In this document: positions 2,799 through 38,152 of the stretch, in pieces | How positions within the stretch are numbered: position 1 is the first letter of the stretch | Layout of the letters: each line of letters opens with the position of its first letter | DNA from: a virus | Taxonomy: Duplodnaviria; Caudoviricetes | DNA length: 38,153 bases | IMG/VR virus record: IMGVR_UViG_3300025296_000050 | Span: 1-38,153 of that record | Direction: 5' to 3' (one strand) | The notes under the pieces: model-generated | What the model was told of the DNA's origin: nothing | The model's input: the letters and a program-made list of their open reading frames with translations, nothing else | Databases searched by the model: none | Position numbers and translations under genes: made by a program

Positions 2799-4379
2799 TC
2801 AGTAGACGCCTTCGCGTGTCGTTAGGAGTTCAAGCCCCTGGGCGTGGTTCCACGACGCGCCGGCCGCGACGATCATTCGCCCCCGGACGTACCGGCTTGA
2901 ATTGTTCGCCGGGATGATGCCGTCCGTGTTGAGCGATTGCGCCGTATCGAACGAAACGCTATCGACGGTCCGGTTGCGCCCGCCGATGGCCCCCGTGATA
3001 TTGGACGCGGCGGCGTCAACCATCGGAAGCATTCCGGTTGTCCGGGTGAAGTATCCGGGGTTGAGCATCTTTTCCCCGGTCGTCAGGGTCGCCGCCAAGT
3101 TGGCCCCGTCAAAGAAGCCGTACAGGTTGGACGTATTGAAGCCGGCCAACTTGAACGTGCCGCCGGACCAGGCGCGGGAATCGAGGCTAAAGGCAAGCGC
3201 GTCAAGGTCGGTCGATATCGTGTCCAAACCGTCAAGGGTCAATCCTTGCGTCATCGAGCGCAACAGGATTTCGTGAGTGATTTCGGCCTCGCCCCATTTG
3301 TCCTCGACGTAGTTATAGATCGCCAGGATATTCGGCGTACCGCCCGACGAACCCGTACCGGGAAATCCCCAATACACCAACTTGCGGAGCGGGTCGATTG
3401 CCGCCGTGACGCGCGAGCGGTACTGCAAATCGAACTGGTCGTCGAACCACTTATCGACGCGGCCATGGCCGATGGGGATGCTCTCGCCCGTCCCCTCGGT
3501 CATCATAAAGCCTTCCGGGGAATGGTAGAATACGCGGCGGCCCTGGGCGATGACGCTGCCGGGGATTTCCGTGCCGCGCTTGCGGTCAATCCGGTTGAAG
3601 CTGAAAATCTCGCCGCCCCCGACGAAATCCATCCGTTCAATGGCGTTCTCGAAAAACACCAGCCCGTATTCCACGCCCCCGACTACCTTCTGCGCCCAAC
3701 CCGCGCCCTTCACGTCTTGGAAGTCGCAAAGCGTCGCGGCGTCCGGGTCCGCGTCCGTGGTGTCCCCCGCCGCCGACCACCAAACACGGGACGGCTTCAC
3801 GCCGTCGGTCGTGTCGTTCGTGTTCGCCATGACCAGGAATTGATCGCGCACGATATCAATGTGCCGCGCCTTGGGCTTGTTCGTGGACGTAATATGGTCG
3901 GCGAACAACGTGGACGTGCCAAGGGTGAACGATTGGATTGCGTCTTCGTAATTCGTGGCAATCACGGTCAGGTTATCGAGGGTGAATTCCCAACCGCCGT
4001 CGTCCGCGCCGTCATATCCGCCGGACTTCGATACGTTGGACACTTCCGCCGCCGCGTTGATATAATAGAGTTTCTTGTCGTCGCCGGCATGAACGAACAC
4101 AACGCCTTCCGAATTCTGCGCCGCCGACAACCCCCGCGCCCGTCCGTCAAGCGCCGTTGATGTGTCGGCGCTGAAATCCGCCTGCGGGCCGAACCCGTCC
4201 GGGACGGGAACGCCGTTCGTCAACGTCGGCGAACCGGGCGAACCAAGGGGCGCGCGGTCGGGCTCGAAGGATTCAAATTCCAGGACCGGCCCCGGTACGT
4301 CGCTGTCCGCCAATATCGGGCGGATCGCCGCCAACCGAGCGGCGAGGGATTTTGGCGGCGGGGCGTAGAATTGGGGCAT
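2799..4379 (-). CDS. Tail nozzle/DNA-stabilisation protein (P22 gp10 / tail tubular B-like)
   Basis: 526 aa, beta-rich, RVWWS motif, directly after the adaptor. Confidence 0.7.
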   Translation of the reverse strand: MPQFYAPPPKSLAARLAAIRPILADSDVPGPVLEFESFEPDRAPLGSPGSPTLTNGVPVPDGFGPQADFSADTSTALDGRARGLSAAQNSEGVVFVHAGDDKKLYYINAAAEVSNVSKSGGYDGADDGGWEFTLDNLTVIATNYEDAIQSFTLGTSTLFADHITSTNKPKARHIDIVRDQFLVMANTNDTTDGVKPSRVWWSAAGDTTDADPDAATLCDFQDVKGAGWAQKVVGGVEYGLVFFENAIERMDFVGGGEIFSFNRIDRKRGTEIPGSVIAQGRRVFYHSPEGFMMTEGTGESIPIGHGRVDKWFDDQFDLQYRSRVTAAIDPLRKLVYWGFPGTGSSGGTPNILAIYNYVEDKWGEAEITHEILLRSMTQGLTLDGLDTISTDLDALAFSLDSRAWSGGTFKLAGFNTSNLYGFFDGANLAATLTTGEKMLNPGYFTRTTGMLPMVDAAASNITGAIGGRNRTVDSVSFDTAQSLNTDGIIPANNSSRYVRGRMIVAAGASWNHAQGLELLTTREGVY

Positions 4380-5275
4380 CAGGCTACCGCCACTTCCGAA
4401 CGTATCTGCGACCGGCCACGCGGGAACCGCCCGGCCTTGAAGGCGTTGCTATGGGCGTCAATCCGTTCTTGGTACAACGTCGCGTATTCCAACGCCCGCA
4501 TCCCGTTCGCCAGGAACGAATGGGCCTCGACCAAGGAGGCGTAGAGATAAATCCCCGGCGCGTTGGTCAGAATCCAGTTGGTGTCGCTATCGGCGGATAG
4601 GGCCGCGAACCGGCGGAAGAACAAGAACTTGCCGAAGTATTCCTTGTCCATCAAAGGCGAGAAAATTATGTACGGCCCTTCGACGGTGTACATTTTCGGT
4701 TGTGCGGTTTCGGACGAACCTTTGCGAATCCAGAATTGTTCGGGCGTCATGTAGTCCAGTTTTTTGTTGCCGTCCACGTCGAGATAGACGCGCCGTTGTT
4801 CGACGTACCGGGACGGCAACGGATAGCCGCCACGGGGGACCCACACGAACTGGGTCCCGTCATAGACGATCTCCACGGTATTGCCGTCGATCCAGTCCTC
4901 GTTTTCAAGTTCGTCGCCCGCGTCCTCGCCCTTCTTTACGTCCTTTTCGCCAAGGGACGATATGTTGACGTTGACCGCGCCGGTATTGGTCCCCGCCAAT
5001 TCAAAGTTGTAGCGGTCGCCCAGGGTATAGGCCGTCGCCGCCGTCGATGGGGTCAACAAGACGGTGTTCGTCCCGGAAACGGTCGATACCGTCGTCGCGG
5101 CGGTCAGGCGCAAGTCGATGTGGGCTTCCATCGACCGGACCCGCAAATCGGTATAGATGCGGTCTTCGGCCAGGGTCACGAATTCCTTTAGGCGGTCATC
5201 CGCGACCTGATTGCTATCGCGCTTCAACCAGTTGGATATCGCGCTCCGCAATAGGGTGAAGGTATTGATCGCCAT
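4379..5275 (-). CDS. Head-tail adaptor protein with an inserted tail-fibre-like domain
   Basis: 298 aa; MAINTF..AISNWLKR..FVTLAEDRI..DLR N-terminus and NWILTNAPGIYLYASL C-terminus; about 90-aa insertion at aa 58-148. Confidence 0.75.
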   Translation of the reverse strand: MAINTFTLLRSAISNWLKRDSNQVADDRLKEFVTLAEDRIYTDLRVRSMEAHIDLRLTAATTVSTVSGTNTVLLTPSTAATAYTLGDRYNFELAGTNTGAVNVNISSLGEKDVKKGEDAGDELENEDWIDGNTVEIVYDGTQFVWVPRGGYPLPSRYVEQRRVYLDVDGNKKLDYMTPEQFWIRKGSSETAQPKMYTVEGPYIIFSPLMDKEYFGKFLFFRRFAALSADSDTNWILTNAPGIYLYASLVEAHSFLANGMRALEYATLYQERIDAHSNAFKAGRFPRGRSQIRSEVAVA

Positions 5276-5659: not shown

Positions 5660-5701
5660 TACCGCGCCACCTTAAATAATCCTTTTACTTCAACCGGTTG
5701 T

Positions 5702-6079
5702 TCACCGGCTCATCTCCGTTATAAATAGGATGCCGCCCGACGATTCCTGGATGGCCGAGACAATGGCAAGGCCCGGCGCTAAGACCAGCATGGGCACGTT
5801 GGCCGGGAGCGAAAACGATGTCGTCGATTCCGCCGACGCCGCCGATGTCGCGTCCGCTGATATTTCTTGGCTCGATGAAATCGCCACGTAACAGGCCGTC
5901 GTACACATCAAACGCAAGTGCCGGATGAATTCGCCGGTCCTGTCCGTCGCGTTGAGCGACGTATTGTGATAGTCAAGCCATTGGGTCTTGACCGGCCTTA
6001 GCGGCTCGCCTTGTTGCGCCGCCGCCGGCAACGCTACGGCCACCAGCATCGCCGCAAGGATTATCTTGATTCGCGTCAT
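5702..6079 (-). CDS. Putative virion surface protein with Sec signal peptide and Ser/Ala-rich loop
   Basis: MTRIKIILAAMLVAVALPAAA|QQG; beta-rich mature part ending GILFITEMSR; ATGA-coupled to the upstream ORF. Confidence 0.65.
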   Translation of the reverse strand: MTRIKIILAAMLVAVALPAAAQQGEPLRPVKTQWLDYHNTSLNATDRTGEFIRHLRLMCTTACYVAISSSQEISADATSAASAESTTSFSLPANVPMLVLAPGLAIVSAIQESSGGILFITEMSR

Positions 6080-6651
6080 TGTTCTAACCTTTCAACAAGT
6101 CTTTGAAACCGTTGGCCGTTCGGCAAGGCGAGGCCCCGTCGGATCGCTTCCGTCATCCGGGCGGCGTCGCCGAGTAGATTGGCGTAGAGGGTTTCGGCCA
6201 TCCACATTTCCGGTTGAGCCGCCGCGATTTGTTGAACCCGCGCCATCAACGTCGCCATTTCCGGTTCGCGCCATCGGTTGGAGTTTATCAGGTATTCCGC
6301 CCGCGTTATCAACAAGGCGGGGGCGTGGGGCGCCGCCGTCGCGGCAATCCGATATGCCTTGTCCGCCGCGCCGGGCGATACGGCGACGCATTTCCTCTTG
6401 GAGTCGGTACAAAGCCCGGATTTTGCCATCAACCGGCCCAGGGTCAACATAAGTTGCTTCCGCGTCTGTCCGTCCCAGTCCCAAGTAGCGACCGCCTTCA
6501 CATTCGCTATCCATGCCGGGTCCGGCAAGTCGTGGTTTTCCAGCAAAACGCGCGTGTTCGAGATATACGCTTGGGACAAATACCATTGCGGCACGGCCCA
6601 ACCAATCCAGGCCGCTAACAACAAAGGGATGAGGGCTAGAACGCGAAACAT
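6076..6651 (-). CDS. Membrane-anchored helical (TPR-like) protein; probably the C-terminal domain or partner of the ligase
   Basis: 191 aa, N-terminal TM segment then Ala-rich helices; its stop overlaps the ATG of the next gene. Confidence 0.55.
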   Translation of the reverse strand: MFRVLALIPLLLAAWIGWAVPQWYLSQAYISNTRVLLENHDLPDPAWIANVKAVATWDWDGQTRKQLMLTLGRLMAKSGLCTDSKRKCVAVSPGAADKAYRIAATAAPHAPALLITRAEYLINSNRWREPEMATLMARVQQIAAAQPEMWMAETLYANLLGDAARMTEAIRRGLALPNGQRFQRLVERLEQ

Positions 6652-7711
6652 GCAACCCCACCGCCGCCATGATGACGAACGCGCTGGACGGGAAGTGAAG
6701 CGGGAACCCGACCATTGAGAGCACCCCGGCCACGGCCAGGGTCACGGCCGGCGGCCCCCCGGCGCGGCCCATGAACAAGACGCAAATCACGGCCAGGGCC
6801 AGGCCGACCAACCCGATTTCTGAAACAATCTGTAACAATTCGTTGTGAGCCAGGCCCGCGTCTATCGCCAGCCGTTCCATCAACGTCGTACCCAAGTACG
6901 GCATATGGAATTCGCGGAACAGATCGTAATTCCAATCGAACCCGCCGAGGCCAACCCCGACCCACGGCGCCGTTGACCAGATTGCCGCCGTGTTGATCCA
7001 GATTTCGGCGCGGGCCAGCACGGACGCCCTGGGGTCGCCAAAGGCCCCCATCCAGAGCGCGCCGTTGACGACGACTAGCGCCAGGACCGCCAGGGCGAAC
7101 CATTGCCGGCGGCGCACAAGCCAAGGGACCGCGCAAACGACGGGGACGGCGAGCAACAGCCATTTCGCGTTGGACCCGGACGTTGCGACGTGCCAGCCGC
7201 CCAAGACGACGGCGGGGATGGCCGCCCAGCCCATCGGCCGGCGGACTATCGCCCAAGCGGCCAACGGCAAGGTAATTGCCACCCATTCCAGGAGCCAATT
7301 CGAGTTGCCGAACCCGCCGGATATACCCGGCCGGGCCGCGTACAAAAGCATCACGGCCAACAGGGTCAGATTGGCGCATACCGGGATCCAGGTTGCCAAA
7401 CGTTCCGGCGAAGCCCTTGAGAACGCAAACACGAGAACGCCAAGGGCGACCGCCCTTTGCAATTCGAGCAATCCTTGACGGTAATCCGAGGACCACGTAA
7501 CCGACAGGGCGATCCAGCCTAGCAAGGCCAAGAGCGCCCAATCGAACGGCCGGAAGGTGGGCCGGGCGCGGTATAGCCAACCGGTGCCGGCGAGCAAGAG
7601 AATAATCGTGAAGGTGAATATCGCGGCCCATCGCGGCACCGTCGGGTCAGCCGTATAAATCAAGAAGGTAAGGGACGCCGCCGCGAAAGCGGCGCCCCCA
7701 ACCCAATACAT
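6092..7711 (-). CDS. O-antigen ligase / O-oligosaccharyltransferase (Wzy_C/PglL-like) family membrane protein; credible to about 6652, then apparently out of frame
   Basis: About 11 hydrophobic segments; motifs GFGNSN, R-x2-IW..PWVGVGLGGF, AHNELLQIVSEIGLVG, FPLH. Confidence 0.8.
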   Translation of the reverse strand: MYWVGGAAFAAASLTFLIYTADPTVPRWAAIFTFTIILLLAGTGWLYRARPTFRPFDWALLALLGWIALSVTWSSDYRQGLLELQRAVALGVLVFAFSRASPERLATWIPVCANLTLLAVMLLYAARPGISGGFGNSNWLLEWVAITLPLAAWAIVRRPMGWAAIPAVVLGGWHVATSGSNAKWLLLAVPVVCAVPWLVRRRQWFALAVLALVVVNGALWMGAFGDPRASVLARAEIWINTAAIWSTAPWVGVGLGGFDWNYDLFREFHMPYLGTTLMERLAIDAGLAHNELLQIVSEIGLVGLALAVICVLFMGRAGGPPAVTLAVAGVLSMVGFPLHFPSSAFVIMAAVGLHVSRSSPHPFVVSGLDWLGRAAMVFVPSVYLEHARFAGKPRLAGPGMDSECEGGRYLGLGRTDAEATYVDPGPVDGKIRALYRLQEEMRRRIARRGGQGISDCRDGGAPRPRLVDNAGGIPDKLQPMARTGNGDVDGAGSTNRGGSTGNVDGRNPLRQSTRRRRPDDGSDPTGPRLAERPTVSKTC

Positions 7712-8247
7712 TATTTCGGCTCGATAGTGATCGTGAACTGCGCCGCCGCGCTGCCGTTATCCGCCGCCGGCCCGCCGTCGGACGAGATGGCGATAACGTC
7801 GCCGGTGTGTAGATGGTTGTTGTCGGTCAACCGAACCGGCGTGTAGGTGTCCAAGATGCCAACTTCGTCGCCCGCCGCAAGGTTCGCAATCGTCATATGG
7901 GCGGTTCCGTTGGACACGTTGGCATACGCCGTCGCGTCGCGCATGATCGTAATCTGGATCAGCGCGTCCGCCGTCCCGATGTTGTCCAGCATGACCGATT
8001 GCACCAGGGTTATCTGGGCGTTGGTCACATCGACCGGAACGTAGGTCGTGGAGTATTGAGACACGTCCGTCAGCCGGACGGTAAGGAAGTGCCGCCCGAC
8101 CGCGAACGTCTCTTGTTCCAAGGACGGCCCGGCCCGGACCCAATCCGACGTGCCGTCGGCGTTATGGCGCAGTTGCCATTTCGCGTATGCCGTGCCGGCG
8201 GACACCAGCAACGCGAGAACGAGCAGGGATTTCAGGAAGTTTCGCAT
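7711..8247 (-). CDS. Putative capsid decoration protein with Sec signal peptide
   Basis: Immediately after the MCP; MRNFLKSLLVLALLVSAGTAYA|KW; beta-sandwich-like mature region; SD AAGGAG. Confidence 0.65.
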   Translation of the reverse strand: MRNFLKSLLVLALLVSAGTAYAKWQLRHNADGTSDWVRAGPSLEQETFAVGRHFLTVRLTDVSQYSTTYVPVDVTNAQITLVQSVMLDNIGTADALIQITIMRDATAYANVSNGTAHMTIANLAAGDEVGILDTYTPVRLTDNNHLHTGDVIAISSDGGPAADNGSAAAQFTITIEPK

Positions 8248-8274: not shown

Positions 8275-9213
8275 TTACGACGTGGTGAGGTCGGCGATGA
8301 ACCCGTGCGCGGCCTCGTTGCGGACTTCCATGGTGTATTCGACGAGCAACTGGACCCGCTCGCTGTCGCCGGTTTTCGCCAATTCCCAGTAGCGGAATTC
8401 GCGGAGGTAGGCCACGGCCAGCAACTCGGTTTCGACCAGGAAGCAATCACGCGCCCGCATGAAACGGTCGGGAATCACCTCCATGGTGCCGAAGTCGGAA
8501 TCGTAGAGGTCGATGGCGGCCTGCAAACGGCGGTCGTCGCTGTCCTTGTACCGCGTTGCGTTGCCGGTGAACGTGGACATCACTTGCTTGTTGAACGAGC
8601 CTAGGTAGACCGTATCCGGGTCGCCGCCGGCGTCCCAACAATTCTTGATCTGGGCTTGCAACAGGGTTTCCGAGAACGCCCGTTGGGTCCCGTTGGTCGC
8701 CGCCGTTGTGCCGGTGGCGCCGGCCGAACCGCCCGTCCCGCCGCTATAGTTGGTGGCGATCCACGTCGGCATCCCGCCAAGTTCCCGCGCCGTGCCGGAC
8801 GAACCCGTGACGATGATATTGTTAAGCCACAGGTCGTTTTCCATATCGCGCTTGAGCTCCTTGGCGCGGATGGCGATCTGGTAGGAAAGCTCGTCCCGCC
8901 GGCCCGCCTTCGCCACGGACTGGACGGTCCCGGACACACGCGGCACCTTGTCCGAAATCTGGGTTGTGTTCGACAACCGTGTGGTCGCCGTCGCGGCGTC
9001 CGTGGTGGCGTCGTCGCCTTCCGCCACGATGTTCTGGGTCGCGCCGGACAGGGTGTCGGTCTGCCATTCGTGGGTGATGAACGTCGCGTCCACGCGCGGG
9101 ATGCTGTTGAGCAACGGCGTGTCCGTCGGGGCGATGTTGTAGATATCGTCCGCGAGGTCTTCACGTTCGCCGATTGCGGCGTACGTCTCAAATGTGTTTG
9201 TGGGAACGCCCAT
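8275..9213 (-). CDS. Major capsid protein (DUF5309/SU10-like, HK97 fold)
   Basis: 312 aa; REDLADDIYNIAPTDTP, HEWQTD, KELKRDME, YDSDFG, LAKTGD motifs; SD AAGGAG. Confidence 0.92.
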   Translation of the reverse strand: MGVPTNTFETYAAIGEREDLADDIYNIAPTDTPLLNSIPRVDATFITHEWQTDTLSGATQNIVAEGDDATTDAATATTRLSNTTQISDKVPRVSGTVQSVAKAGRRDELSYQIAIRAKELKRDMENDLWLNNIIVTGSSGTARELGGMPTWIATNYSGGTGGSAGATGTTAATNGTQRAFSETLLQAQIKNCWDAGGDPDTVYLGSFNKQVMSTFTGNATRYKDSDDRRLQAAIDLYDSDFGTMEVIPDRFMRARDCFLVETELLAVAYLREFRYWELAKTGDSERVQLLVEYTMEVRNEAAHGFIADLTTS

Positions 9214-9234
9214 GGGAAGTCACTCCTTTGTGGG

Positions 9235-10380
9235 TCATTGCATTCGGGCTCTCAACACAGCGGCGAGACTTTCCACCGAACCCGTCTTCGAATGGGCGGC
9301 TCGGGCCTTTCGCACCTTGCCCTCGTTGGCGGTCACGGGCCTTTCGGCGGCCCCCGCCCGTACCGACTTGGGCTTCGTTCGCACTTCCTTGACTCGCTTG
9401 TCCCGGTTCTCGACCAACTTCCGGTACTTCATGGCGTCACGGGCCGCGAGAATGGCGCCGGAGCGATATTCGGCGTCGATACTCTCACGCGGTAAACCGT
9501 AGGTCTTAGCCGCGAAGTCCTTGATCTCGGCAATTTCCTTCTTGCCTATGGCCGGGTCTTTGCCCCACGCCGGGACGGCCTGGATAAGTTCCAACGCGTT
9601 GCGTTCGATATCCTGGCTTAGTTCCGCCTGTCGGGTTTGCGCGTGGCGCTCCCCGATGCGCTGTTGTTCGGCCGCCGCCGCCGCAAGTCTTTCCTTGCGT
9701 TGATCGACGTAGGCTTTTTGGCGGTGGTATTCGGTCGGGTCCTCGGCAAGAAGCTGTTGGAGATAGGCATCTTCGGCCCTCACCATTTCGCCAAGTTCCG
9801 CGACCAACGGTTCAAGGTTTTGTGCGTAGTGCTGTCGTTCGGCTTGCACGGCCGCCCGTTCTTGATGGGCCGCCTTGCCTTGTTCGGAAAGTTCCGCCGT
9901 TTTCTGCCGATAATCCTCCAACCGCTGATTGCCGTCCCGCGCCTCGCGGATGGTTATCGCCTCGTCCTTGCCGTTGACTTGCCGGGTAATCGTCATGTCC
10001 AGCAAGTTGTCAAGCGTGATGCCGGCCTTGGTGGCTAGGGCATCGAAGGTGGTCGGCGGTCCATCGTCTGGCGCGGTTGCGGTTGCGGGGTCGTCGGCGG
10101 CCGGCGCGTCGTCGAAATCCGCGTCCGTAAACTCGGGCTCGGGTTCCTTGGCCGGCGTCTGTGTCGGGTCCGGTGCAACGGCCTTGCCGGCAGGCTTGTC
10201 GCCTTCCGGCTTGGCAGGAGCGCGATTGTCCGACTCAGGTTCGTCGCCAGGGCCGATTGTCGGGGGCGTTCCCCGGTCCGGCGCAATCTTGGCGGCGATA
10301 GCCTTGGCGGCTGCTTCGATGCCATGCGGTCCCGGTCCCGCCACGGGTACGGTCGGGTTATCGGGCATCGTGTCAGCCAT
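9235..10380 (-). CDS. Capsid scaffolding protein
   Basis: 381 aa; acidic/Pro-rich N-terminus, DYRQKT motif, coiled coil; directly upstream of the MCP. Confidence 0.8.
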   Translation of the reverse strand: MADTMPDNPTVPVAGPGPHGIEAAAKAIAAKIAPDRGTPPTIGPGDEPESDNRAPAKPEGDKPAGKAVAPDPTQTPAKEPEPEFTDADFDDAPAADDPATATAPDDGPPTTFDALATKAGITLDNLLDMTITRQVNGKDEAITIREARDGNQRLEDYRQKTAELSEQGKAAHQERAAVQAERQHYAQNLEPLVAELGEMVRAEDAYLQQLLAEDPTEYHRQKAYVDQRKERLAAAAAEQQRIGERHAQTRQAELSQDIERNALELIQAVPAWGKDPAIGKKEIAEIKDFAAKTYGLPRESIDAEYRSGAILAARDAMKYRKLVENRDKRVKEVRTKPKSVRAGAAERPVTANEGKVRKARAAHSKTGSVESLAAVLRARMQ

Positions 10381-10708
10381 TCAAGTTCTTTCTTTTTTCC
10401 GTGATTTGTTCAATCGCCAAGCGGGCGGTTTCGGCGCCCTGGGTATACGTCTTGAAAGCCCGGCGAATGACCTTCAACACCCGGATCGTGACGTGTAAGC
10501 GGTCCCGGTCTACCGGGTTATCGCAATTTTCCCACGTCGCGACGGTTTGTTTTTCCAGGTCATCCATAACCTGGTTGAAAAACGGATCGTCCAGAATTCC
10601 CTTCGCCGCCTCGGCGACCCGCAAGTGATCGCGGTTCGCCTGTTCGATATCGCGCAGCGACTTATCGTTGGTGACGTGCGCGATGTCCTGGGCGGTCGTC
10701 GGGATCAT
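10373..10708 (-). CDS. Conserved small head-module protein
   Basis: 111 aa, helical; between portal and scaffold. Confidence 0.65.
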   Translation of the reverse strand: MIPTTAQDIAHVTNDKSLRDIEQANRDHLRVAEAAKGILDDPFFNQVMDDLEKQTVATWENCDNPVDRDRLHVTIRVLKVIRRAFKTYTQGAETARLAIEQITEKRKNLNG

Positions 10709-10711
10709 GGC

Positions 10712-10972
10712 TTAGTAACCGCTTTTCATCCGTTTCTTGAAATTCGGGGTCTTGCTACCGCGCGGACAACCGCCCGCCGGTAATCGGGTTTCCCGGACGC
10801 GGGCATTGGACCCGTATTCGGGGCTTCGCAGACCGGTTCCGCCGGCCGTGGCCGTGCCGTAATCGCCGGCTAGCGAACGCCCGCCGCCGCCGGATGACTT
10901 GGCGGCCTTGGCGACTTTTCCCCCGCCTCGTGGCGAGGAATTGGCGTTCTTGTACTTCATACCCTTTGGCAT
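10712..10972 (-). CDS. Small basic Gly/Lys-rich protein
   Basis: 86 aa from ATG 10972 (MPKGMKYK...), SD AAGGAG upstream. Confidence 0.6.
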   Translation of the reverse strand: MPKGMKYKNANSSPRGGGKVAKAAKSSGGGGRSLAGDYGTATAGGTGLRSPEYGSNARVRETRLPAGGCPRGSKTPNFKKRMKSGY

Positions 10973-11024
10973 GGTGGTTTCTCCTTCCGCTTGGTTTACG
11001 GTCTTTCGTGAGATATCGCCGGCA

Positions 11025-11053
11025 AGGTTGCTTACGTTTTTCGGAAACGTCAA
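11025..11053 (-). promoter_or_regulatory. Putative late promoter for the scaffold/capsid genes
   Basis: TTGACG-17 nt-CAACCT; shares AAAACGTAAGCAACCTT exactly with the 13.9 kb site. Confidence 0.6.
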
Positions 11054-11063
11054 GCGGCGCGGG

Positions 11064-13340
11064 CTAATGTTCGTGTTCGTGCTCCTGTTTCGCCAGCGCA
11101 ATCGCCATGTCGGTTTCCTCCTTGCGCTTGGCAAGGTCGATATCGGCGGCCGTCTTGCCGGCGTCGATGGCGAGGCGTTGCTCGGCAAGTTCGCGTTCCA
11201 TCGCTATGCGGGCGGCCATTTCGTCGCGTTTCATGCCGATTTCGGCCTGCATCCTTTCCATATCGCGTTGGTGTTCCAACTGCATCTTCTCGGTTTCCAG
11301 TTGGGCCTTTTGCGCCGCCTCCGCCTGCTTGATCTGGGCGTTCTGTTGGACCTCCGCTTGCTTCATTTGCAACTCGGCCTTCTTCGCCTCCAAATCGCCT
11401 TGAATCTTCATCATCGCCGGGTCGGGCTGCGGTTGCTTCTGCGGCAACTGCGTCCCTTCCTTGACGCGGGCGAAATACGGCTCCGCGCTGCGGAAGCCGA
11501 ACCCTTCCACCACCGCTTCCAATCCGTTGCTGACATGGTGCGGCATCACGAACGGGCCTTCGATACCTTGTTGCAATTCGACGATCCCGCGTTGCAACTG
11601 GATGATCGCGTTGGCCCCTTCCTGGCGCGATTCCGGCGTCCCGTAGCCCAGCCCGACGTTGACGATCAGGTCCATGTCCGCGTTCCATTCGCGGGGGTCG
11701 AAATCGACCCATTCCTTGCCGCGAAGGCGGACGGCTCGCGCCTCGTCCTGGTGTTCGATGACCTCCGCCAGCGTCTTTTTGAACAGGTCCTTGACGCCGC
11801 TCTCGGCGAACAGGCGGGCGACCAGTTGGATGCGCCGTTGCGTCCGCGCCATGATCCGGGAAATCCCGGTGGCCGTCTTGTTGAGCGAATCGGCGTCAAG
11901 CCCTTGGCTGTATCGCGTCACGCCGGTTCGCGTTTCGCGCTGCGTCTGGACGTGTTCAATCAGCGGCAACGCCATCGGCCCAATGGGCTGCGTCACCAGG
12001 GGCATCACCGCGTCGCCGACCGGGGCGCTACCTTCCGCGAGAACCGTCCCGCCGATGATGTTGGACAACATATCGTCCATGTCGATGCGTTCGTTGATGA
12101 CCGTCCGCGCGTTGTTCAATTGGTACATGTTGTCGAGAACCTGGCGCCAGATTATCGTATTGATTAGCTGCAAATCGGCGACGAGTTCGGCGAAGGCGCG
12201 GCCAAAGAACTTGTGCGGTTCGCGGATCGGCGTGACCGAACAAAACGGATTGCGCGCGACTTCTTCGTTGTACAAGATAGTGTATTCGCCGCCGGCGACG
12301 ATAATTTTCCGGTATTCGGCCAGCCCGTCGCCGTCGAAATCCACGTTGAGGTAGCATTCGATAACCCAAATCGGGCGCGTCGTCGCGTCCGGGCTGTCGT
12401 CTTCGTAAGGGTATTCGTCGTCCCGACTGAACCGCGATACCCGTTCCGAATTGAACTCCGATTCGTCGAACGACGGGATTGACCGGACGAGTTCCGGATC
12501 GAACCCTTCCTCGATCAACTGGCTTTCAGTCTTGCGGACCTTGTGGCCGATGAAGTTGTTATCGTCCGTGGTCTTTGACCTCCGGGCGATTATCAGTTCT
12601 TCGGGCGGGATCGGTTCGACGACGACACGGCCCTTGTTCATGGCGCGAACGCACTCAACGTTGAACACACGGACGGTCGGCCGAATTTCCTCCGGGACGT
12701 TGGCCTCGACGAACGCCTCGATATCCCCGATCTTCTGCCCTTCAAGGTCGATCCCAAGTTCGTCGGCAACGCGCGTCAAATCGTCCGACACGCCTTCGTC
12801 TTGGGAAACGACTTCAACCTCGTCGTCTTCGACCAGTAAGGCCAGGTCGTCGGCCGACAAGTTTGAATAGCGGTAGGTTTTCCGTTCCTCGCGGTCGGAC
12901 CAATAGACCTTGACGAAGCCGTTGATTTGAACCAGCGCGTCCTTGAACCAATCGTAAAGGATTGTCCAGCCGGGGTTGTCGCGCATCACGATGAAGTTGA
13001 TGTAGTCGGTCGCCTGTTCGCTAAACTTTTCGTCGCCGCGTTCTTGCGGAACGAACTCGACGACCTTATCGCCGGCCGTGAATACCTCCATCAAATCGGG
13101 CATCATGGCTTCGATGGTGTCGAACATATCCGACGTGACGACTTGGGACCGGCCTTCGACCTCGATATTGTACGGTTCCGACCGATACTGTTCGAGCAGC
13201 TTCCGCCTATCGGACGTAATTTCGCCGCCGACGTGCCCTATCGCGGCGTCCACCTGGCGTTGCAGGATATTCTTGAGTTCGTCGTCCGTAAGCGGCCGGT
13301 TGACGCGCCCATGGTTGCCCGCGTTGTCCCGGTAGGCCAT
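11064..13340 (-). CDS. Portal protein (P22-like, C-terminal coiled-coil barrel)
   Basis: 758 aa; GRSQVV, DALVQINGFVKVYW, PHKFFG, RTGVTRYSQG, TATG motifs. Confidence 0.92.
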   Translation of the reverse strand: MAYRDNAGNHGRVNRPLTDDELKNILQRQVDAAIGHVGGEITSDRRKLLEQYRSEPYNIEVEGRSQVVTSDMFDTIEAMMPDLMEVFTAGDKVVEFVPQERGDEKFSEQATDYINFIVMRDNPGWTILYDWFKDALVQINGFVKVYWSDREERKTYRYSNLSADDLALLVEDDEVEVVSQDEGVSDDLTRVADELGIDLEGQKIGDIEAFVEANVPEEIRPTVRVFNVECVRAMNKGRVVVEPIPPEELIIARRSKTTDDNNFIGHKVRKTESQLIEEGFDPELVRSIPSFDESEFNSERVSRFSRDDEYPYEDDSPDATTRPIWVIECYLNVDFDGDGLAEYRKIIVAGGEYTILYNEEVARNPFCSVTPIREPHKFFGRAFAELVADLQLINTIIWRQVLDNMYQLNNARTVINERIDMDDMLSNIIGGTVLAEGSAPVGDAVMPLVTQPIGPMALPLIEHVQTQRETRTGVTRYSQGLDADSLNKTATGISRIMARTQRRIQLVARLFAESGVKDLFKKTLAEVIEHQDEARAVRLRGKEWVDFDPREWNADMDLIVNVGLGYGTPESRQEGANAIIQLQRGIVELQQGIEGPFVMPHHVSNGLEAVVEGFGFRSAEPYFARVKEGTQLPQKQPQPDPAMMKIQGDLEAKKAELQMKQAEVQQNAQIKQAEAAQKAQLETEKMQLEHQRDMERMQAEIGMKRDEMAARIAMERELAEQRLAIDAGKTAADIDLAKRKEETDMAIALAKQEHEHEH

Positions 13341-16981: not shown

Positions 16982-17010
16982 ACTTTCCGCCTATTCGTTC
17001 GATTTGTCAA
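16982..17010 (-). promoter_or_regulatory. Putative promoter upstream of the packaging genes
   Basis: TTGACA-17 nt-GAAAGT followed by about 165 nt of GC-rich leader. Confidence 0.45.
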
Positions 17011-17725
17011 GATATCCGAACCGTTCCATCATGGCACGGTTGACGGTTTCGATCTTGCGCGCCTGGGGCTTGGTCAGCACGTTGCGCCAGCCGCCCGCCT
17101 GGCCGCGCCGAAAGAAACGCTTGCACGACGGCGGCCGTTCGGCAAACCCGTCGCGGTCCTCTTGCGCCTGTAGTTCGTGAAACCGGGAATGGTCGATGGC
17201 GCGCGCAAATTGTTTGCGGTCAAAACCGGGAGCAAGAACCGACGCGATCAGGTTAAATGCTAGGCCGTTCCGATTGCCAAGTATGGTTTCATATCGCATT
17301 ACCAAACCCGAAGGTACGACGGTGTTTTTTGTCCACGCCTTGACGTGCCCGGACCATGACCCGTCCGCCGTCTTGGCCGGTGGGGTCACAACGCGGTCGG
17401 CGCGCGGCGCCATCGGTTCTTTGCTGTTCAACGTCCTGATCGCCCGGCTTATCGTCACGCCGTAATGGGCGGCCCAGGACACGGCAACGTCGCGGGGGTC
17501 GCGGACGATGTAGACGGTGCGCGGCGGGATGGTCAGGCCATGAGGCAAGCGGTGTATCCTCACCATGTCGCCGTCCGCTAGGTTGCCCACGTCCTTGTGG
17601 TAGACCTTCCACAAGTCCACGATTTGTTGCAGGCGCAACGGTTCGGCGCCGCCGTGGAGCAAGTTCGCCAGAAATGCCCGGACCCACGTCGAGCCGGACT
17701 TCGGATAGGACGCGACCCAAATCAT
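16991..17725 (-). CDS. PAPS-dependent sulfotransferase (Sulfotransfer_1-like)
   Basis: 5'-PSB motif SYPKSGSTW, 3'-PB motif YIVRDPRDVAVS, RYE, FFRRGQAGGW; start ATG 17725. Confidence 0.88.
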   Translation of the reverse strand: MIWVASYPKSGSTWVRAFLANLLHGGAEPLRLQQIVDLWKVYHKDVGNLADGDMVRIHRLPHGLTIPPRTVYIVRDPRDVAVSWAAHYGVTISRAIRTLNSKEPMAPRADRVVTPPAKTADGSWSGHVKAWTKNTVVPSGLVMRYETILGNRNGLAFNLIASVLAPGFDRKQFARAIDHSRFHELQAQEDRDGFAERPPSCKRFFRRGQAGGWRNVLTKPQARKIETVNRAMMERFGYLDKSNE

Positions 17726-17871
17726 CCGAACACCCCGGCCATCCATTGAAGGATCATCCCGACGATTGCCGCGACGGCGATTATCGGCGGGGCGACGACG
17801 ATAGCCGCCAATAAGTAAACCCACCATCGGGGCCGCGCCGGCGGCGGGTTGATGTCGTCAAAGATCGTCAA
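17722..17871 (-). CDS. Small membrane protein (49 aa, not in the ORF track)
   Basis: TTG start; WWVYLLAAIVVAPPIIAVAAIVGMILQW; overlaps both neighbours by 4 nt. Confidence 0.5.
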   Translation of the reverse strand: MTIFDDINPPPARPRWWVYLLAAIVVAPPIIAVAAIVGMILQWMAGVFG

Positions 17872-33927: not shown

Positions 33928-34311
33928 TTAATCCCACGTCGGCCCGAACCACCGCACCGCGTTCGCCATGATCTTGCGCTTGAACGCCGGCACCCCCGCC
34001 GCAATCATGGCCGCCTCAAAGATGTCCGCTGCGATGGCCGATGTCCATAGTTTCAGGATGCAAAGATCATCGTGGACCACCGCCGCCTCGATATGTGAGT
34101 CCACCTTCTGCGCGATCCACTTCGGTACGATGGATGGAATCGACGCCAGGTCCGTCTCTCGTCCCTTGCCGACGGTGTAGACGACAACCTCGCCGTCCTT
34201 CACAAACTCGACCGTGTAATGCCGGTCCACGATGAACAGCGCGCCGTCGCCCTTCACTTCGCGGCGAAGGTAAAGCGGCTCAACGTAGCGGAAGGCAGAT
34301 ATTGCTGTCAT
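33928..34311 (-). CDS. DUF1353-family protein
   Basis: V..G.ETDLASIP, AAVVHDDL, AD.F..AM...GV....R..M..AVR.FG. Confidence 0.8.
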   Translation of the reverse strand: MTAISAFRYVEPLYLRREVKGDGALFIVDRHYTVEFVKDGEVVVYTVGKGRETDLASIPSIVPKWIAQKVDSHIEAAVVHDDLCILKLWTSAIAADIFEAAMIAAGVPAFKRKIMANAVRWFGPTWD

Positions 34312-34343
34312 GGCTGCGCTCGGCGACGTAGAGAGGGGTCATG

Positions 34344-34514
34344 TCAGCGAGGTTCCCGGCGCGCTGGCGGAGGACTAGCGCGAGGCAAAGTGCCGGTTAA
34401 TGTTCCGCTAGACAAATTGTTGGGCACCGTCACCGTCACGTCGCCCTCGACGCGGACCACGACCACCGTGCAAGCGGCCAGGAACAGGGCTAGGGCGACG
34501 GCCGACACGCGCAT
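34344..34514 (-). CDS. Small lipoprotein (spanin candidate, 56 aa, not in the ORF track)
   Basis: MRVSAVALALFLAA|C lipobox, Pro-rich tail; directly after the endolysin. Confidence 0.55.
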   Translation of the reverse strand: MRVSAVALALFLAACTVVVVRVEGDVTVTVPNNLSSGTLTGTLPRASPPPARREPR

Positions 34515-34517
34515 TAT

Positions 34518-34916
34518 TCAGTACCCGAACGCATTTTGCGCCAACCCGGCCAAATCACGGCGATCAAGGTGGACGCCCCAAGGAGCCACGCCAACCGACC
34601 AACCCAATTCCAGGGCGTGGCGCAGTAAATCGACCTTATCGAAGGTTGAACCGGGCCAGGCGATGTCAATCGCCGCCGTGCCGCCGACCGGATGGTGCGG
34701 TTTGTCAAAGACATGTAGGGAGCGCTCATGGCCGCCAACCTCCATATTATGGGCTTTGGACCGACAACATGAATTGACAACCATGGGCCGCCCGTAAGCC
34801 AATCGAAGTTCAAGAAGCCAGATAGCGAATTGCGGAACGAGTTTGGCAATGCCGGTCGCGGGGCACCGTAATTCATGGTGTGTAAAATACACCGCCCCGC
34901 CACGTTCGATGTTCAT
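34518..34916 (-). CDS. Endolysin, peptidase M15 family
   Basis: YF...EL.C, VNS..R...HN..VGG...S.H, AAIDI, VHLD. Confidence 0.85.
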   Translation of the reverse strand: MNIERGGAVYFTHHELRCPATGIAKLVPQFAIWLLELRLAYGRPMVVNSCCRSKAHNMEVGGHERSLHVFDKPHHPVGGTAAIDIAWPGSTFDKVDLLRHALELGWSVGVAPWGVHLDRRDLAGLAQNAFGY

Positions 34917-35224
34917 CAAAACCCGAGCGGGTGATAATTATGGCCGGACCCATAGTAGCAGGCCATTCCCCGACCATCGACGAGGAAAATAGTAAACGTT
35001 CCCGCCGGGCTCACGTGCATTTCCATCATCAAGCCGTTGTCGAGCAACGCGACCCATGCTTGTTTTTCGCCGTGCCTATCGTGTAGCGCTTCCACCATGC
35101 TCGCATGGATGCCGCACACCGACATGGCGACTTGCATGGCCTTCGTGGAAGATTCCGGTTTCCCCGATTGCGGCGTGGCGACGCACCCGCCAAGAAGCAT
35201 CAGCGTGAGGATGATGCACTTCAT
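34916..35224 (-). CDS. Lipoprotein
   Basis: MKCIILTLMLLGG|C lipobox; 102 aa. Confidence 0.7.
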   Translation of the reverse strand: MKCIILTLMLLGGCVATPQSGKPESSTKAMQVAMSVCGIHASMVEALHDRHGEKQAWVALLDNGLMMEMHVSPAGTFTIFLVDGRGMACYYGSGHNYHPLGF

Positions 35225-35556
35225 TTCTGCAACTTGTTTTTGCGTTCCAAAAGCCTTTTATGCTGGCGCTTCTGGTCCTCCAACCACCTGTAACCGTCTA
35301 CGGTCGGGTGGGTTTTCATGCGGTTTTCCAATTCCCACATAGACCGGCGTAGGGCGTCAATCTGTATCTGGATAATGGCCGACCTGTTCTCGCGGCTTTG
35401 CCCCGCCACTTCCAGATTTTCTTGGACGTGTGGCGCATACTCCGACATCCAGACCGGGCGGTCTACGGTGTAGCCAAAGGTGGTCCCCCCACCAATTACC
35501 ATCAAGACTAGCAAATACCAGAACTTGAACTTTTCGGCGTGTTCCTTGATGCTCAT
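35221..35556 (-). CDS. Single-TM coiled-coil protein (holin/i-spanin candidate)
   Basis: 111 aa from ATG 35556; FWYLLVLMVIGGG TM segment then coiled coil; lysis cluster. Confidence 0.55.
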   Translation of the reverse strand: MSIKEHAEKFKFWYLLVLMVIGGGTTFGYTVDRPVWMSEYAPHVQENLEVAGQSRENRSAIIQIQIDALRRSMWELENRMKTHPTVDGYRWLEDQKRQHKRLLERKNKLQK

Positions 35557-36002
35557 TCGTAAACCTTCCGCATATCCTTCAACCGCCCGGAATAGTCGCC
35601 CTTGCTTTCGTTCGGCAAGGTGATCTCGCCACGGATAGCGCGGTGAAGCTCCCACAAGGCGTCGCGCATGGCTTTCATGTTCTTCTTGTTCATATCGGCT
35701 ACCGCCGCCGCTTCTGATCGTCGCGGCGGGAGTCCCGCTAGCATCGTATTATATGCGGCTTCCTGGGCCTCGATTTCCGCCGCCGTTACAGGCGCGCCCG
35801 ACCACTTGGCCGCACGGTCAAGATACGCCTGGCGGTTTTCTACGCCATCCCATGCCTCGGTCAGGTGAGAGAGACGGCCAGGGAAAGCCCATTGCAACAC
35901 CCGGCGAAATACCTTGTGGTCGTTGTTGAATGGCGCCGCGCTAACAAGAACCGGCTGCCAAAACAAGATTGCCGCCAAAGCAAGGATCGAAAGAGTTCTC
36001 AT
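35553..36002 (-). CDS. Putative tail-fibre assembly protein with Sec signal peptide
   Basis: MRTLSILALAAILFWQPVLVSA|AP; KWSGAPVTAAEIEA motif; immediately downstream of the fibre. Confidence 0.55.
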   Translation of the reverse strand: MRTLSILALAAILFWQPVLVSAAPFNNDHKVFRRVLQWAFPGRLSHLTEAWDGVENRQAYLDRAAKWSGAPVTAAEIEAQEAAYNTMLAGLPPRRSEAAAVADMNKKNMKAMRDALWELHRAIRGEITLPNESKGDYSGRLKDMRKVYE

Positions 36003-36020
36003 GTTACCCCCATGTTACCC

Positions 36021-37319
36021 TCATGTGCCATCGACCACTTCCACCAGGAACCGCGCCGTCCGTGTGGTCCCCGTCACCGTGATTTCGCCGGTTTGAGACA
36101 CGACATTATCGCCCAGCCATACCTCTACATCCTGAGACCCCGTGGACATGCTGTTCCCAACAATGTCCCAGGTGAAGACCATGGGCATAGAAATCGAGCC
36201 GATGCTGTTCCCCCACCCCCCAGGCCCCTGTATTGACCCGGTAACGCTCGCGTCCGGTTCGGCAACCACCATATATTCGAGAGTGCCGGCCTCATTGTCC
36301 GCTGATGCCCAAAGAAGGGAGTCGGTGCCTATCTTTATGGCGATGCCGGCGGCGGAGTTGCCGCCCTCGGTTTCGTCAACCTCCATCGTTAGAACAGTGA
36401 CCCGGACAGCCCCCGCCGTAGGGATGGACAGTGAAACGGCGGAGCCCATCTGACTGCCGCCGGCTGCTTGTGTGGCAAGCGCCGTGTCTGATGTGTGGGT
36501 GATTGAGCCGACGGCCGATAGCTTGCCGCCGGCGGCCGCCGCCTGGAATGTCGGCGCGGCCCCCGCCCCGTTGGACGTGAGGACTTGACCGGATGTTCCC
36601 GTCGCCACGCCCGCCGCGTTGCCGCTTGAATTCCAGGTGATAAGTTCGCCGTCCTCGTTATCACCGATGTTCGCGAACGTCAGTTTCGACCACGACGTAT
36701 CCGTCCCGTCGGTAATGACAACCTGGTCCGCCGTCCCGACCGCAAGCCGTTCGGAATTGCCGGAACTATCGCCGCGTACCAAGTCGCCCCGCGTGGTGAT
36801 GGGATCCGTGTAGGTTGACGGCGCGTTGGCAAGCCCGGATAGAAGTTGGAAAGCGTCCTGTTGCGCGTTGTAGACGACAAGGATTTGCGAACCCGCCTCA
36901 AGGTCACCGCTGGCAAGCGCTTGGTCCCGCGACTTCAAGATGTTCTTGGCGGTCAGCGCGCCGATTGCTAGGGTGGTCGCGCCCGTGTTCGCCGTGGTGA
37001 CTTCGATTGCGAATGTGTGGCCGTTGGCAAGCGCGCTAATGGTCCGGTTCGGCGTGACCTTGACGGAATTCGCGGCGGCCGAATAATCCGACAGCGAACC
37101 ATCCCAGTCCTTGTGCCACCGTGCGAGGATGCCCTCCAAGGCACGGGCGGCGTTGTTCACGTCGGACGGTGGCATGTTCTCCGGGAAACCGGCGTTCGCG
37201 GCGGTGCCCGTATTGTTGGCGTCCGTCGTGTCCAGATCGGTGATTTCGGCGGCACGCAAACCGCCCCAGATCAATCCCGCCGCCAGCAACGCCAGTAGGC
37301 TCGTTTTCCACTTTCGCAT
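36021..37319 (-). CDS. Tail fibre/spike protein with Sec signal peptide (432 aa)
   Basis: ATG 37319 after AAAGGA; MRKWKTSLLALLAAGLIWGGLRA|AEI; FPENMPPSDVNNAARA anchor-like motif; two GT.GQVL-type fibre repeats. Confidence 0.75.
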   Translation of the reverse strand: MRKWKTSLLALLAAGLIWGGLRAAEITDLDTTDANNTGTAANAGFPENMPPSDVNNAARALEGILARWHKDWDGSLSDYSAAANSVKVTPNRTISALANGHTFAIEVTTANTGATTLAIGALTAKNILKSRDQALASGDLEAGSQILVVYNAQQDAFQLLSGLANAPSTYTDPITTRGDLVRGDSSGNSERLAVGTADQVVITDGTDTSWSKLTFANIGDNEDGELITWNSSGNAAGVATGTSGQVLTSNGAGAAPTFQAAAAGGKLSAVGSITHTSDTALATQAAGGSQMGSAVSLSIPTAGAVRVTVLTMEVDETEGGNSAAGIAIKIGTDSLLWASADNEAGTLEYMVVAEPDASVTGSIQGPGGWGNSIGSISMPMVFTWDIVGNSMSTGSQDVEVWLGDNVVSQTGEITVTGTTRTARFLVEVVDGT

Positions 37320-37388
37320 TGTCTTATCGTCCTTTATATTCGCCCCATGATTTGGCGATATGGAGCGGGGATCATATTTGGCACCTTG

Positions 37389-37418
37389 ATGATGAGCCTT
37401 GCGCTTTCCCTCTGGCAA
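37389..37418 (-). promoter_or_regulatory. Possible late promoter for the fibre/lysis genes
   Basis: TTGCCA-18 nt-CATCAT; spacer AAAGCGCAAG resembles AAAACGTAAG. Confidence 0.35.
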
Positions 37419-37420
37419 TT

Positions 37421-38152
37421 CTAACGGTTTATTAGTTCACCCGCTGCCCCACCAGCCTGTTGACCTGCGCCAACCAACACCCCGCGAATGAACAAGTCGA
37501 TTTGCTGGGTTTCCGCTTTCGTCGGCACCCGGCTTCCCTCCAACACGTCCAACAGACGCTGGTTCATCGATTGATTACGGTTGAACAGCATCCGGGCAAG
37601 GGCCTGATTGTATTCATCGGAACCACCGCCAATCAGGCTTTGCGTTAATCGTCGTCCAATGCCGGCGCGAACCAGATCATGCCCACCTAGCGGCAGGGCG
37701 GAGCCGAGAACGGCGCCAAAATTGCCGAGACTGCTTTGCACACTAGCAACTTCCTCGGACATGGGTACCGTGCGTGAACCAGCGCCGATGGCGGCCTGGG
37801 TTTCGGCAAACTTGGTTTCGGCGACCATGGCACGACGGAATTCCGTATAGGCGCCTTGCGAGGGGAATAGCTCGCGGACTTTACCACGCAATAGGGTGTT
37901 CCCGAAGATGCGCCGCGCCGCGCTAGCCTTGTCGCCCGCCGCGTTCACTTTGTCCATCAAGGCACGGACGGCGCCGGAACGATACGCTTCTTGCGCGGAT
38001 GGCGATAGCTTGTCGATCTCGCGGCGGATGACTTCACGGTCAAGTTTGAGGAAACCGCGACCTTCTTCCAAGGCACCCAAAACCTCGGCATCGGAGCTGT
38101 AGATGCGCCGTGCCTTGGCATAGGGCGATGCCTTGCCACCCGTTGCCTTGTC
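37421..38152 (-). CDS. C-terminal part of a large ejection/internal virion protein (enters from the window edge)
   Basis: Open frame from the edge (DKATGGKASPYAKARRIYS...); helical; precedes the tail fibre. Confidence 0.65.
   Translation of the reverse strand, partial: DKATGGKASPYAKARRIYSSDAEVLGALEEGRGFLKLDREVIRREIDKLSPSAQEAYRSGAVRALMDKVNAAGDKASAARRIFGNTLLRGKVRELFPSQGAYTEFRRAMVAETKFAETQAAIGAGSRTVPMSEEVASVQSSLGNFGAVLGSALPLGGHDLVRAGIGRRLTQSLIGGGSDEYNQALARMLFNRNQSMNQRLLDVLEGSRVPTKAETQQIDLFIRGVLVGAGQQAGGAAGELINR

What the first reader, a model, noticed from the sequence alone, without database searches (positions are those of the whole stretch)
35553..37319. Tail fibre and its putative chaperone both carry Sec signal peptides
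Seen: the fibre begins MRKWKTSLLALLAAGLIWGGLRA| placed directly in front of what looks like the normal fibre N-terminus (AEITDLDTTDANN..FPENMPPSDVNNAARA). The next gene begins MRTLSILALAAILFWQPVLVSA|. Portal, scaffold, MCP, adaptor and nozzle lack such leaders, so the pattern selects outer-surface components. Inference: the fibre folds with its chaperone in the periplasm and joins the virion only after the inner membrane is breached. Alternatively it blocks receptors in the infected cell. This is a second locus supporting the same system.
Basis: partly seen in the sequence, partly recalled or inferred. Interest (0 to 1): 0.88.

Follow-up and report, generated by a model that had tools for sequence, protein, structure and literature searches.

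The report
Phage exports and sugar-coats virion parts
This marine phage puts export-type signal peptides on its tail fibre and likely head-surface proteins, and relatives do so only when they also carry an O-antigen-ligase-like membrane enzyme, so these parts are likely sent to the periplasm, likely given a sugar coat there, and would join the particle only at lysis.

Summary
The leaders are real. Among 49 homologues carrying the fibre's N-terminal domain, 17 have a signal-peptide-like leader ending in Ala/Ser right before it; 32 start there at Met. The 149-aa neighbour also has a leader, but no homologue, so 'chaperone' is unproven; chaperone-like genes behind exported fibres in relatives lack leaders.

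The leader belongs to a larger system. Next to the capsid gene lies a Wzy_C membrane protein (WaaL fold plus TPR domain), flanked by two small genes with leaders (DecA, DecB). DecA had a leader in 16/16 Wzy+ versus 0/79 Wzy− loci, and in 24/24 loci found later by the enzyme alone. Fibre leaders: 7/10 Wzy+ phages versus 0/44 Wzy− loci. Exported DecB mostly gains a CxxxC pair. Only 4 independent tree pairs support the link (p=0.125).

Best reading (~0.6): outer virion parts are exported by Sec, glycosylated in the periplasm by a phage-encoded oligosaccharyltransferase, and added at lysis. Export, glycosylation and late assembly are all untested. I found nothing like it in ten literature searches.

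The parts
36021..37319 (-). Tail fibre, 432 aa; the only fibre-like gene found in the structural region
   Evidence: Family profile matches gp47 tail fibre 9B45, E 6e-14; homologues hit tail/fibre PHROGs; N-domain conserved
37251..37319 (-). 23-aa Sec-type leader of the fibre; predicted cleavage before Ala24
   Evidence: 17 of 49 homologues have such a leader ending at the same position
35553..36002 (-). 149-aa orphan with a 22-aa leader (35937-36002); predicted helical at low confidence; chaperone role unproven
7711..8247 (-). DecA: likely head-surface protein directly after MCP, with a leader (8182-8247)
   Evidence: Leaderless orthologue is HTVC106P gp61; leader in 16/16 Wzy+ and 0/79 Wzy- loci
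6092..7711 (-). Wzy_C membrane protein, WaaL-like core to about 6653, then an out-of-frame run-on tail; candidate oligosaccharyltransferase
   Evidence: PF04932 E 5.6e-12; family versus 7TPG E 2e-5; homologue model versus WaaL Z 15.5
6076..6651 (-). Separately encoded TPR-like C-terminal part of the enzyme, with its own N-terminal hydrophobic segment
   Evidence: Same split in G007 and G009; no indel in 4 runs; variants conservative in this frame
5702..6079 (-). DecB: likely small head/vertex protein with a leader (6017-6079) and a CxxxC pair
   Evidence: Leaderless orthologue HTVC106P gp60; weak match to phiM5 virion protein gp13; CxxxC 9/11 versus 1/40
4379..5275 (-). SU10 adaptor without leader, carrying an inserted copy of the fibre's second domain
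8275..9213 (-). SU10 major capsid protein, no leader

Best explanation
The fibre, DecA, DecB and the 149-aa orphan carry Sec-type leaders and are likely exported to the periplasm late in infection, where the phage's Wzy_C enzyme likely transfers a lipid-linked host glycan onto them, and they would bind to finished capsids once lysis opens the inner membrane. Shown: the leaders, their exact position before the natural N-terminus, their absence from core parts, their restriction to phages with the Wzy_C gene, and the WaaL fold and conserved Arg/His of that enzyme family. Inferred: export and cleavage, protein as acceptor, Und-PP-glycan as donor, assembly at lysis, and the purpose (most likely a host-like glycan coat that shields the particle or changes its adhesion). 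DecA is the constant client; DecB and the fibre are recruited in most, not all, lineages.
For: Leader ends Ala/Ser at the domain start in 17 of 17. Wzy_C was found in 4 of 8 records with a leader-bearing fibre (the other 4 are 5-15 kb fragments) and in 1 of 42 with a leaderless fibre (50 of 80 loci tested). DecA leader 16/16 Wzy+ versus 0/79 Wzy-; DecB 13/13 versus 0/79 (not dereplicated). Out-of-sample: of 59 loci pulled by an enzyme motif, 29 held the family, and all 24 with detectable DecA had the leader. One of these has an unrelated head module (L343). Fibre leader in 7 of 10 Wzy+ phages and 0 of 44 Wzy- loci, although the fibre lies 9-12 kb from the enzyme gene in relatives. The fibre leader changes state 6 times (4 forced by starred branches) on an 83-row tree. 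Exported DecB has CxxxC in 9 of 11 versus 1 of 40, as expected for an oxidising compartment. Enzyme: WaaL fold Z 15.5 plus TPR domain; R215 100%, H272 99%, G233/G235 100% of 138; weak TfpM O-OTase hits in 6 of 18. O-OTase genes mostly lie next to their target genes (PMC3643930, passages). The N-domain scores alike in exported and leaderless fibres (median 128 versus 133 bits).
Against: No experiment. On the MCP tree there are only 4 starred independent pairs, all concordant, sign test p=0.125. For fibre leader versus Wzy there is only 1 such pair. DecA-Wzy-DecB are adjacent and can move as one block. 3 of 10 Wzy+ phages have a leaderless fibre (G009, G052, L345), and DecB is leaderless in 2 Wzy+ phages. 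The PglL_A motif and model are not matched (0 of 18), and TfpM scores are far below cut-off, so LPS/EPS ligase or polymerase activity is open. No sequon or Ser/Thr enrichment separates exported from leaderless DecA/DecB; only a longer, often S/T/A-rich loop in DecB (17-28 versus mostly 15-20 aa). Virion location of DecA is inferred from gene position; of DecB, from a weak match (E 0.005 among 13 proteins). No isolated phage carries the enzyme.
Confidence: 0.6

Rival explanations
1. The parts are exported and added at lysis for folding, disulfide formation or timing, while the Wzy_C enzyme separately remodels host LPS or capsule, like known prophage Wzy polymerases; the two travel together as a cassette.
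For: Nearest solved structure is WaaL. PglL-specific models are not matched. Prophage-encoded Wzy changes capsule in Acinetobacter (PMC13228068, abstract). DecB gains a Cys pair.
Against: Leaderless orthologues fold without export in 79 loci and in an isolated phage. No leader-bearing DecA, DecB or fibre was seen in a head region lacking the enzyme. The enzyme gene sits inside the late operon, between two exported genes. Chaperone-like genes behind exported fibres lack leaders.
Confidence: 0.17
2. The exported proteins, glycosylated or not, no longer serve the virion; they act in the envelope of the infected cell or lysogen as receptor blockers or decoys.
For: The phage has an integrase and an integrated relative exists (G053). 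Export separates these proteins from the assembly site.
Against: This is the only fibre gene found; L128 shows ejection-type genes, not a fibre, in 1.9 kb of the roughly 3.6 kb missing from the window (the rest unseen). The virion-docking N-domain is as conserved as in leaderless fibres. The genes keep their late-operon positions.
Confidence: 0.1
3. Two forms are made: a cytoplasmic form, from an internal start or leaky export, builds the virion, and the exported form is secondary.
For: In-frame TTG at 37259 with a -4.7 kcal/mol anti-SD duplex. An ATG/GTG lies 4-5 codons before the domain in 3 of 6 distinct viral fibres with a leader.
Against: No start codon near the end of the leader in the other 3. 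The position is not conserved. It does not explain the coupling to the enzyme.
Confidence: 0.1

Closest known systems
Bacterial O-linking oligosaccharyltransferases (PglL, TfpM; Wzy_C PF04932)
   Same: Wzy_C core, conserved Arg/His, periplasmic route, gene adjacent to exported candidate targets (PMC3643930 passages)
   Different: Phage-encoded, in a late operon; candidate targets are virion parts; PglL_A model not matched; TfpM far below cut-off; often split into core and TPR ORFs
WaaL O-antigen ligase (7TPG/7TPJ)
   Same: Fold of residues 1-350, Z 15.5, rmsd 4.1 over 326 residues
   Different: 14-16% identity, added TPR domain, not in an LPS locus
Virion glycosylation in mycobacteriophages (Freeman et al. 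2023; seen only as cited in passages of PMC11256854 and PMC10877033; the paper itself was not held)
   Same: Phage-encoded enzymes put glycans on virion proteins; proposed glycan shield
   Different: Described as glycosyltransferases modifying capsid and tail tube; that they act in the cytoplasm without export is my recall. Here the enzyme is a membrane Wzy_C protein and the clients have leaders
Prophage Wzy polymerases of Acinetobacter (PMC13228068, abstract)
   Same: Phage-encoded membrane enzyme acting on lipid-linked host glycans
   Different: Those convert the capsule in lysogens; the abstract mentions no link to structural genes or signal peptides
SU10/LUZ24-like podophages: Pelagibacter phage HTVC106P, Sinorhizobium phage phiM5
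   Same: MCP 42-46% identical; same gene order; HTVC106P gp61, gp60 and gp54 match DecA, DecB and the fibre N-domain
   Different: All leaderless; no Wzy_C match in the isolate collection

Membership tests
Sec/SPase I signal peptide (fibre, g149) | Basic n-region, hydrophobic core, small residues at -1/-3 | tested here: met
   Own heuristic, not SignalP; -1 is Ala/Ser in 17 of 17 fibre homologues; window fibre has Leu at -3
Sec/SPase I signal peptide (fibre, g149) | Start codon upstream of the hydrophobic segment is the true start | tested here: met
   RBS at 37319 and 36002, none at 37418; leader conserved in type across homologues; internal TTG not excluded
Sec/SPase I signal peptide (fibre, g149) | Export and cleavage in vivo | not testable with these tools
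   needs fusions or N-terminal proteomics
Tail fibre | Homology to characterised fibres and position after ejection genes | tested here: met
   9B45 gp47 E 6e-14 for the family profile; PHROG tail hits of homologues
Tail fibre assembly chaperone (Tfa/DUF4376/XkdW) for g149 | Sequence or profile homology | tested here: inconclusive
   No Pfam hit at E<=1; best local cluster profile 4.2 bits among 25 clusters, not significant; no homologue
Wzy_C / WaaL-like superfamily | PF04932 above cut-off | tested here: met
   46.1 bits versus 31.7; 18 of 18 family members hit
Wzy_C / WaaL-like superfamily | WaaL fold with conserved Arg and His of the periplasmic region | tested here: met
   Z 15.5 on the model of the G005 homologue; R215 and H272 align to Arg/His of 7TPG and are 99-100% conserved; no conserved Arg matching the third residue was identified
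PglL O-OTase | PglL_A motif (H400, E404, P406; PF15864) | tested here: not met
   0 of 18 hit PF15864; the apparent equivalent is LxxxG/E-FP, without His (mapping by motif, inferred)
PglL O-OTase | PglL_B residues Q178/N180 and G316/G318 | tested here: inconclusive
   N-x-N (98%, 94%) and G-x-G (100%) present, but mapped by motif only, and G-x-G also occurs in WaaL 7TPG
TfpM O-OTase | NF058641 above cut-off | tested here: not met
   15-19 bits versus 600; 6 of 18 weak hits
O-OTase (functional class) | Transfers glycan from Und-PP to Ser/Thr of a protein | not testable with these tools
   PMC3643930 notes that simple sequence analyses cannot separate WaaL from PglL

The most novel reading that the evidence does not exclude
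A widespread group of tailed phages has evolved a secretory glycoprotein pathway. Fibres and head decorations go through Sec, are glycosylated in the periplasm by a phage-encoded oligosaccharyltransferase using the host's own O-antigen or capsule units, and are mounted on capsids only at lysis, giving virions dressed in host glycan. Substrates are recruited simply by gaining a leader, which has happened or been undone several times on the fibre.
Probability: 0.55. Interest if true: 0.93.

Novelty: categorically new. Interest (0 to 1): 0.86.

Why it matters
Tailed phages are thought to assemble wholly in the cytoplasm (textbook knowledge, recalled). Export of the tail fibre and head-surface proteins would add a trans-membrane step and make lysis the last stage of morphogenesis. 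A phage-encoded O-OTase would be a second, mechanistically separate route to virion glycosylation. The family is large: 310 clusters at 50% identity with E<1e-30 (how many are phage-borne was not determined). It could supply new glycoengineering enzymes with their acceptor proteins encoded next door. The claim is testable by plain co-expression in laboratory E. coli.

Tried and rejected
g149: no homologue in two searches; Atlas gave nothing above TM 0.5; single-sequence AF2 pLDDT 55, not searched further; phmmer over all loci then held gave E>1; singleton among 303 post-fibre genes. Complex prediction of fibre tip x3 with g149 x3: no verdict, score 0.00. No RNA holder listed for the locus. The start at TTG 37418 was rejected: no RBS, and no counterpart in homologues. 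An assembly-error explanation for the Wzy split was rejected. A C-terminal or compositional glycosylation signature in DecA/DecB was sought and not found. DecA and DecB have no PDB sequence match. The viral fold library gave no match at E<=0.001 for the enzyme. No isolated phage matched the enzyme or the fibre. The four fragments with a leader-bearing fibre, plus L009, lack the enzyme but are 12-37% complete and uninformative. The promoter/terminator scan was at chance level. Ten literature searches (open-access PMC and bioRxiv only) listed no paper on exported virion proteins or a phage O-OTase; I judged listings and abstract starts only, plus passages of PMC3765740 (SAR endolysin only). Subscription papers and supplements were not seen. 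The tool for contigs encoding an exact protein was closed, so the 16 other leader-bearing fibres have no genomic context, except those also met in loci (P0010 = G001). That last-added podovirus parts can attach to finished heads in vitro is recalled; one search found no paper for it.

Full report
Setting. The window is a whole 38,153-base virus record: an SU10-type podophage with portal, scaffold, MCP, adaptor, nozzle and ejection genes on the minus strand and an integrase. About 3.6 kb are missing against the longest known contig (41,781). L128 covers 1.9 kb of that gap with genes continuing the ejection region. 14 runs hold half or more of the sampled words; all are labelled marine metagenome 2017 and may be one campaign.

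Observation. The fibre starts at ATG 37319 and the next gene at ATG 36002, each with a basic n-region, hydrophobic core and Ala at -1. Both starts have ribosome-binding signals; TTG 37418 has none. SignalP was not available. My heuristic marked 7 of 26 window genes tested (fibre, g149, DecA, DecB, the Wzy C-terminal ORF, two lipoproteins), against a background of 14 of 447. Three of four runs laid reproduce both genes without change.

The fibre leader in homologues. Of the 120 proteins listed, 49 carry the N-terminal domain. 17 have a leader that ends in Ala or Ser exactly where the domain begins, and 32 begin Met-Ala/Ser/Thr there. Cleavage would therefore give the same N-terminus as Met removal does in leaderless forms (inference). 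In 80 viral loci, 8 had a leader (6 distinct phages), 2 were cut at the contig start, and the rest start at or within a few residues of the domain. The family profile matches tail fibre 9B45. On an 83-row tree the leader changes state 6 times, 4 of them forced by starred branches.

The second gene. g149 has no homologue, family or reliable fold. In relatives with an exported fibre, the chaperone-like genes lack leaders: DUF4376 in G053, and a 151-aa gene in G001 that I judge chaperone-like by eye. LIGFGAG-type proteins, one with a LamG domain, have leaders in G001 and G006 and none in four other loci. So g149 is an exported-type orphan; a structural partner is as likely as a chaperone.

The system. 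After the MCP the window encodes DecA (leader), a Wzy_C protein, and DecB (leader). I searched 50 of the 80 fibre records: the 8 with a leader and 42 long ones. Wzy_C was in 4 of the 8 (the others are short fragments) and in 1 of the 42. Among 180 MCP loci, 148 reached the adaptor and 18 had the enzyme. Counting only loci that reached the adaptor or held the enzyme, and in which the gene was scored, DecA had a leader in 16/16 versus 0/79 and DecB in 13/13 versus 0/79 (not dereplicated; the profiles were seeded partly from these loci). As an out-of-sample test I pulled loci by enzyme motifs alone (two already known records left out). 29 of 59 held the family, and DecA had a leader in all 24 where it was detected. 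Two more had another leader-bearing gene upstream, two were cut, and one was uninformative; that is 19 distinct phages by my count. One (L343) has an unrelated head module. DecB had a leader in 7 of 10 loci (one by eye). The fibre has a leader in 7 of 10 Wzy+ phages (window, G001, G005, G006, G007, G053, G054; not G009, G052, L345) and 0 of 44 Wzy- loci. Kinship weakens this: the MCP tree needs 5 changes and gives 4 of 4 concordant starred pairs, p=0.125 (63-row version 3 of 3). One member is integrated in a 355-kb contig of a Rhodospirillales MAG, which points to a diderm alphaproteobacterial host for that phage; the window's own host is unknown.

What DecA and DecB are. Their leaderless orthologues are HTVC106P gp61 and gp60. 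DecB weakly matches phiM5 gp13, annotated as detected in the particle proteome. Atlas neighbours of DecB are mostly viral, unnamed clusters. Exported DecB has CxxxC in 9 of 11 versus 1 of 40 and a longer following loop. No sequon emerged.

The enzyme. An unsplit homologue (G005) was modelled at pLDDT 96.8. It matches WaaL over residues 1-350 (Z 15.5) and TPR proteins over about 380-549. Arg215, His272, Pro230 and Gly233/235 are 98-100% conserved in 138 sequences. PMC3643930 (passages) says PF04932 holds both WaaL and PglL, that simple sequence analyses cannot separate them, and that O-OTase genes mostly sit beside their targets. PglL_A is not matched; TfpM only weakly. It therefore works like a Wzy_C transferase but is not a PglL or TfpM member. 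In the window, G007 and G009 the TPR part is a separate ORF with its own hydrophobic start. Four runs show no indel, and four variants are silent or conservative in the TPR frame but all change the run-on frame.

Mechanism. Shown: leaders only on non-core parts, coupled to the enzyme gene. Inferred: Sec export and cleavage; transfer of an Und-PP-linked glycan to Ser/Thr of these proteins; binding to capsids when the holin opens the inner membrane. The last step rests on recalled knowledge that decorations and podovirus fibres are added last. I put this at 0.6, against export for folding with a separate LPS role (0.17), envelope blockers (0.1) and dual forms (0.1).

Novelty. Ten searches of the open-access library listed nothing on this. 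Known neighbours are mycobacteriophage virion glycosylation (seen only in citing passages) and prophage Wzy capsule conversion (abstract).

Noticed in passing
window 4379-5275 (-), residues about 70-150: The adaptor carries an inserted copy of the fibre's second domain (28% identity, E 4e-6). Seen in 8 of 15 Wzy+ and 1 of 129 Wzy- loci; the one exception (L282) looks like a fibre gene mis-hit.
   Followed up: partly
window 6076-7711 (-): The enzyme is naturally split into core and TPR ORFs, with a roughly 185-aa out-of-frame run-on tail. Whether there are two proteins or a programmed frameshift is open.
   Followed up: partly
window 16991-17827 (-): Sulfotransferase (PF00685, E 9e-21) upstream of the terminase genes; it might tailor a glycan or surface. 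Co-occurrence was not tested.
   Followed up: no
L173:13731-14453, L120:11041-11826, L123:11932-13446, L203:3839-5185: Anp1-like proteins (one Wzy+, one Wzy- phage) and TPR proteins occupy the same MCP-to-adaptor slot in relatives, hinting at a cytoplasmic modification route in this family.
   Followed up: partly
L343 (about 9021-11281 on the reversed strand): The same enzyme with an upstream leader-bearing gene sits in a podophage with an unrelated head and tail module.
   Followed up: partly
L368: The enzyme is flanked by two leader-bearing genes directly after a terminase-like gene, without SU10 MCP in view.
   Followed up: no
window 5667-5711: A 43-base deletion variant overlapping the last codons of DecB and the gap before g126 occurs in 3 of 4 runs.
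   Followed up: no
window 37371-37556: 15-16 substitutions cluster in the end of the ejection gene and the gap before the fibre in three runs, while fibre and g149 are invariant.
   Followed up: no
window 35993-36023: A GGGTAACATG repeat after the fibre stop makes a 4-codon mini-ORF whose stop overlaps the g149 start, possibly translational coupling.
   Followed up: no
window 33928-35553 (-): Lysis-type block: one-TM 110-aa protein, two lipoproteins (102 and 56 aa), leaderless M15 peptidase, DUF1353. The timing of outer-membrane rupture would matter for late assembly.
   Followed up: no
L314, L316/L345: MCP genes are interrupted by insertions, one with a homing-endonuclease-like ORF.
   Followed up: no
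L154:6990-8132: An ART-PolyVal domain protein lies directly after the enzyme gene in one phage.
   Followed up: no
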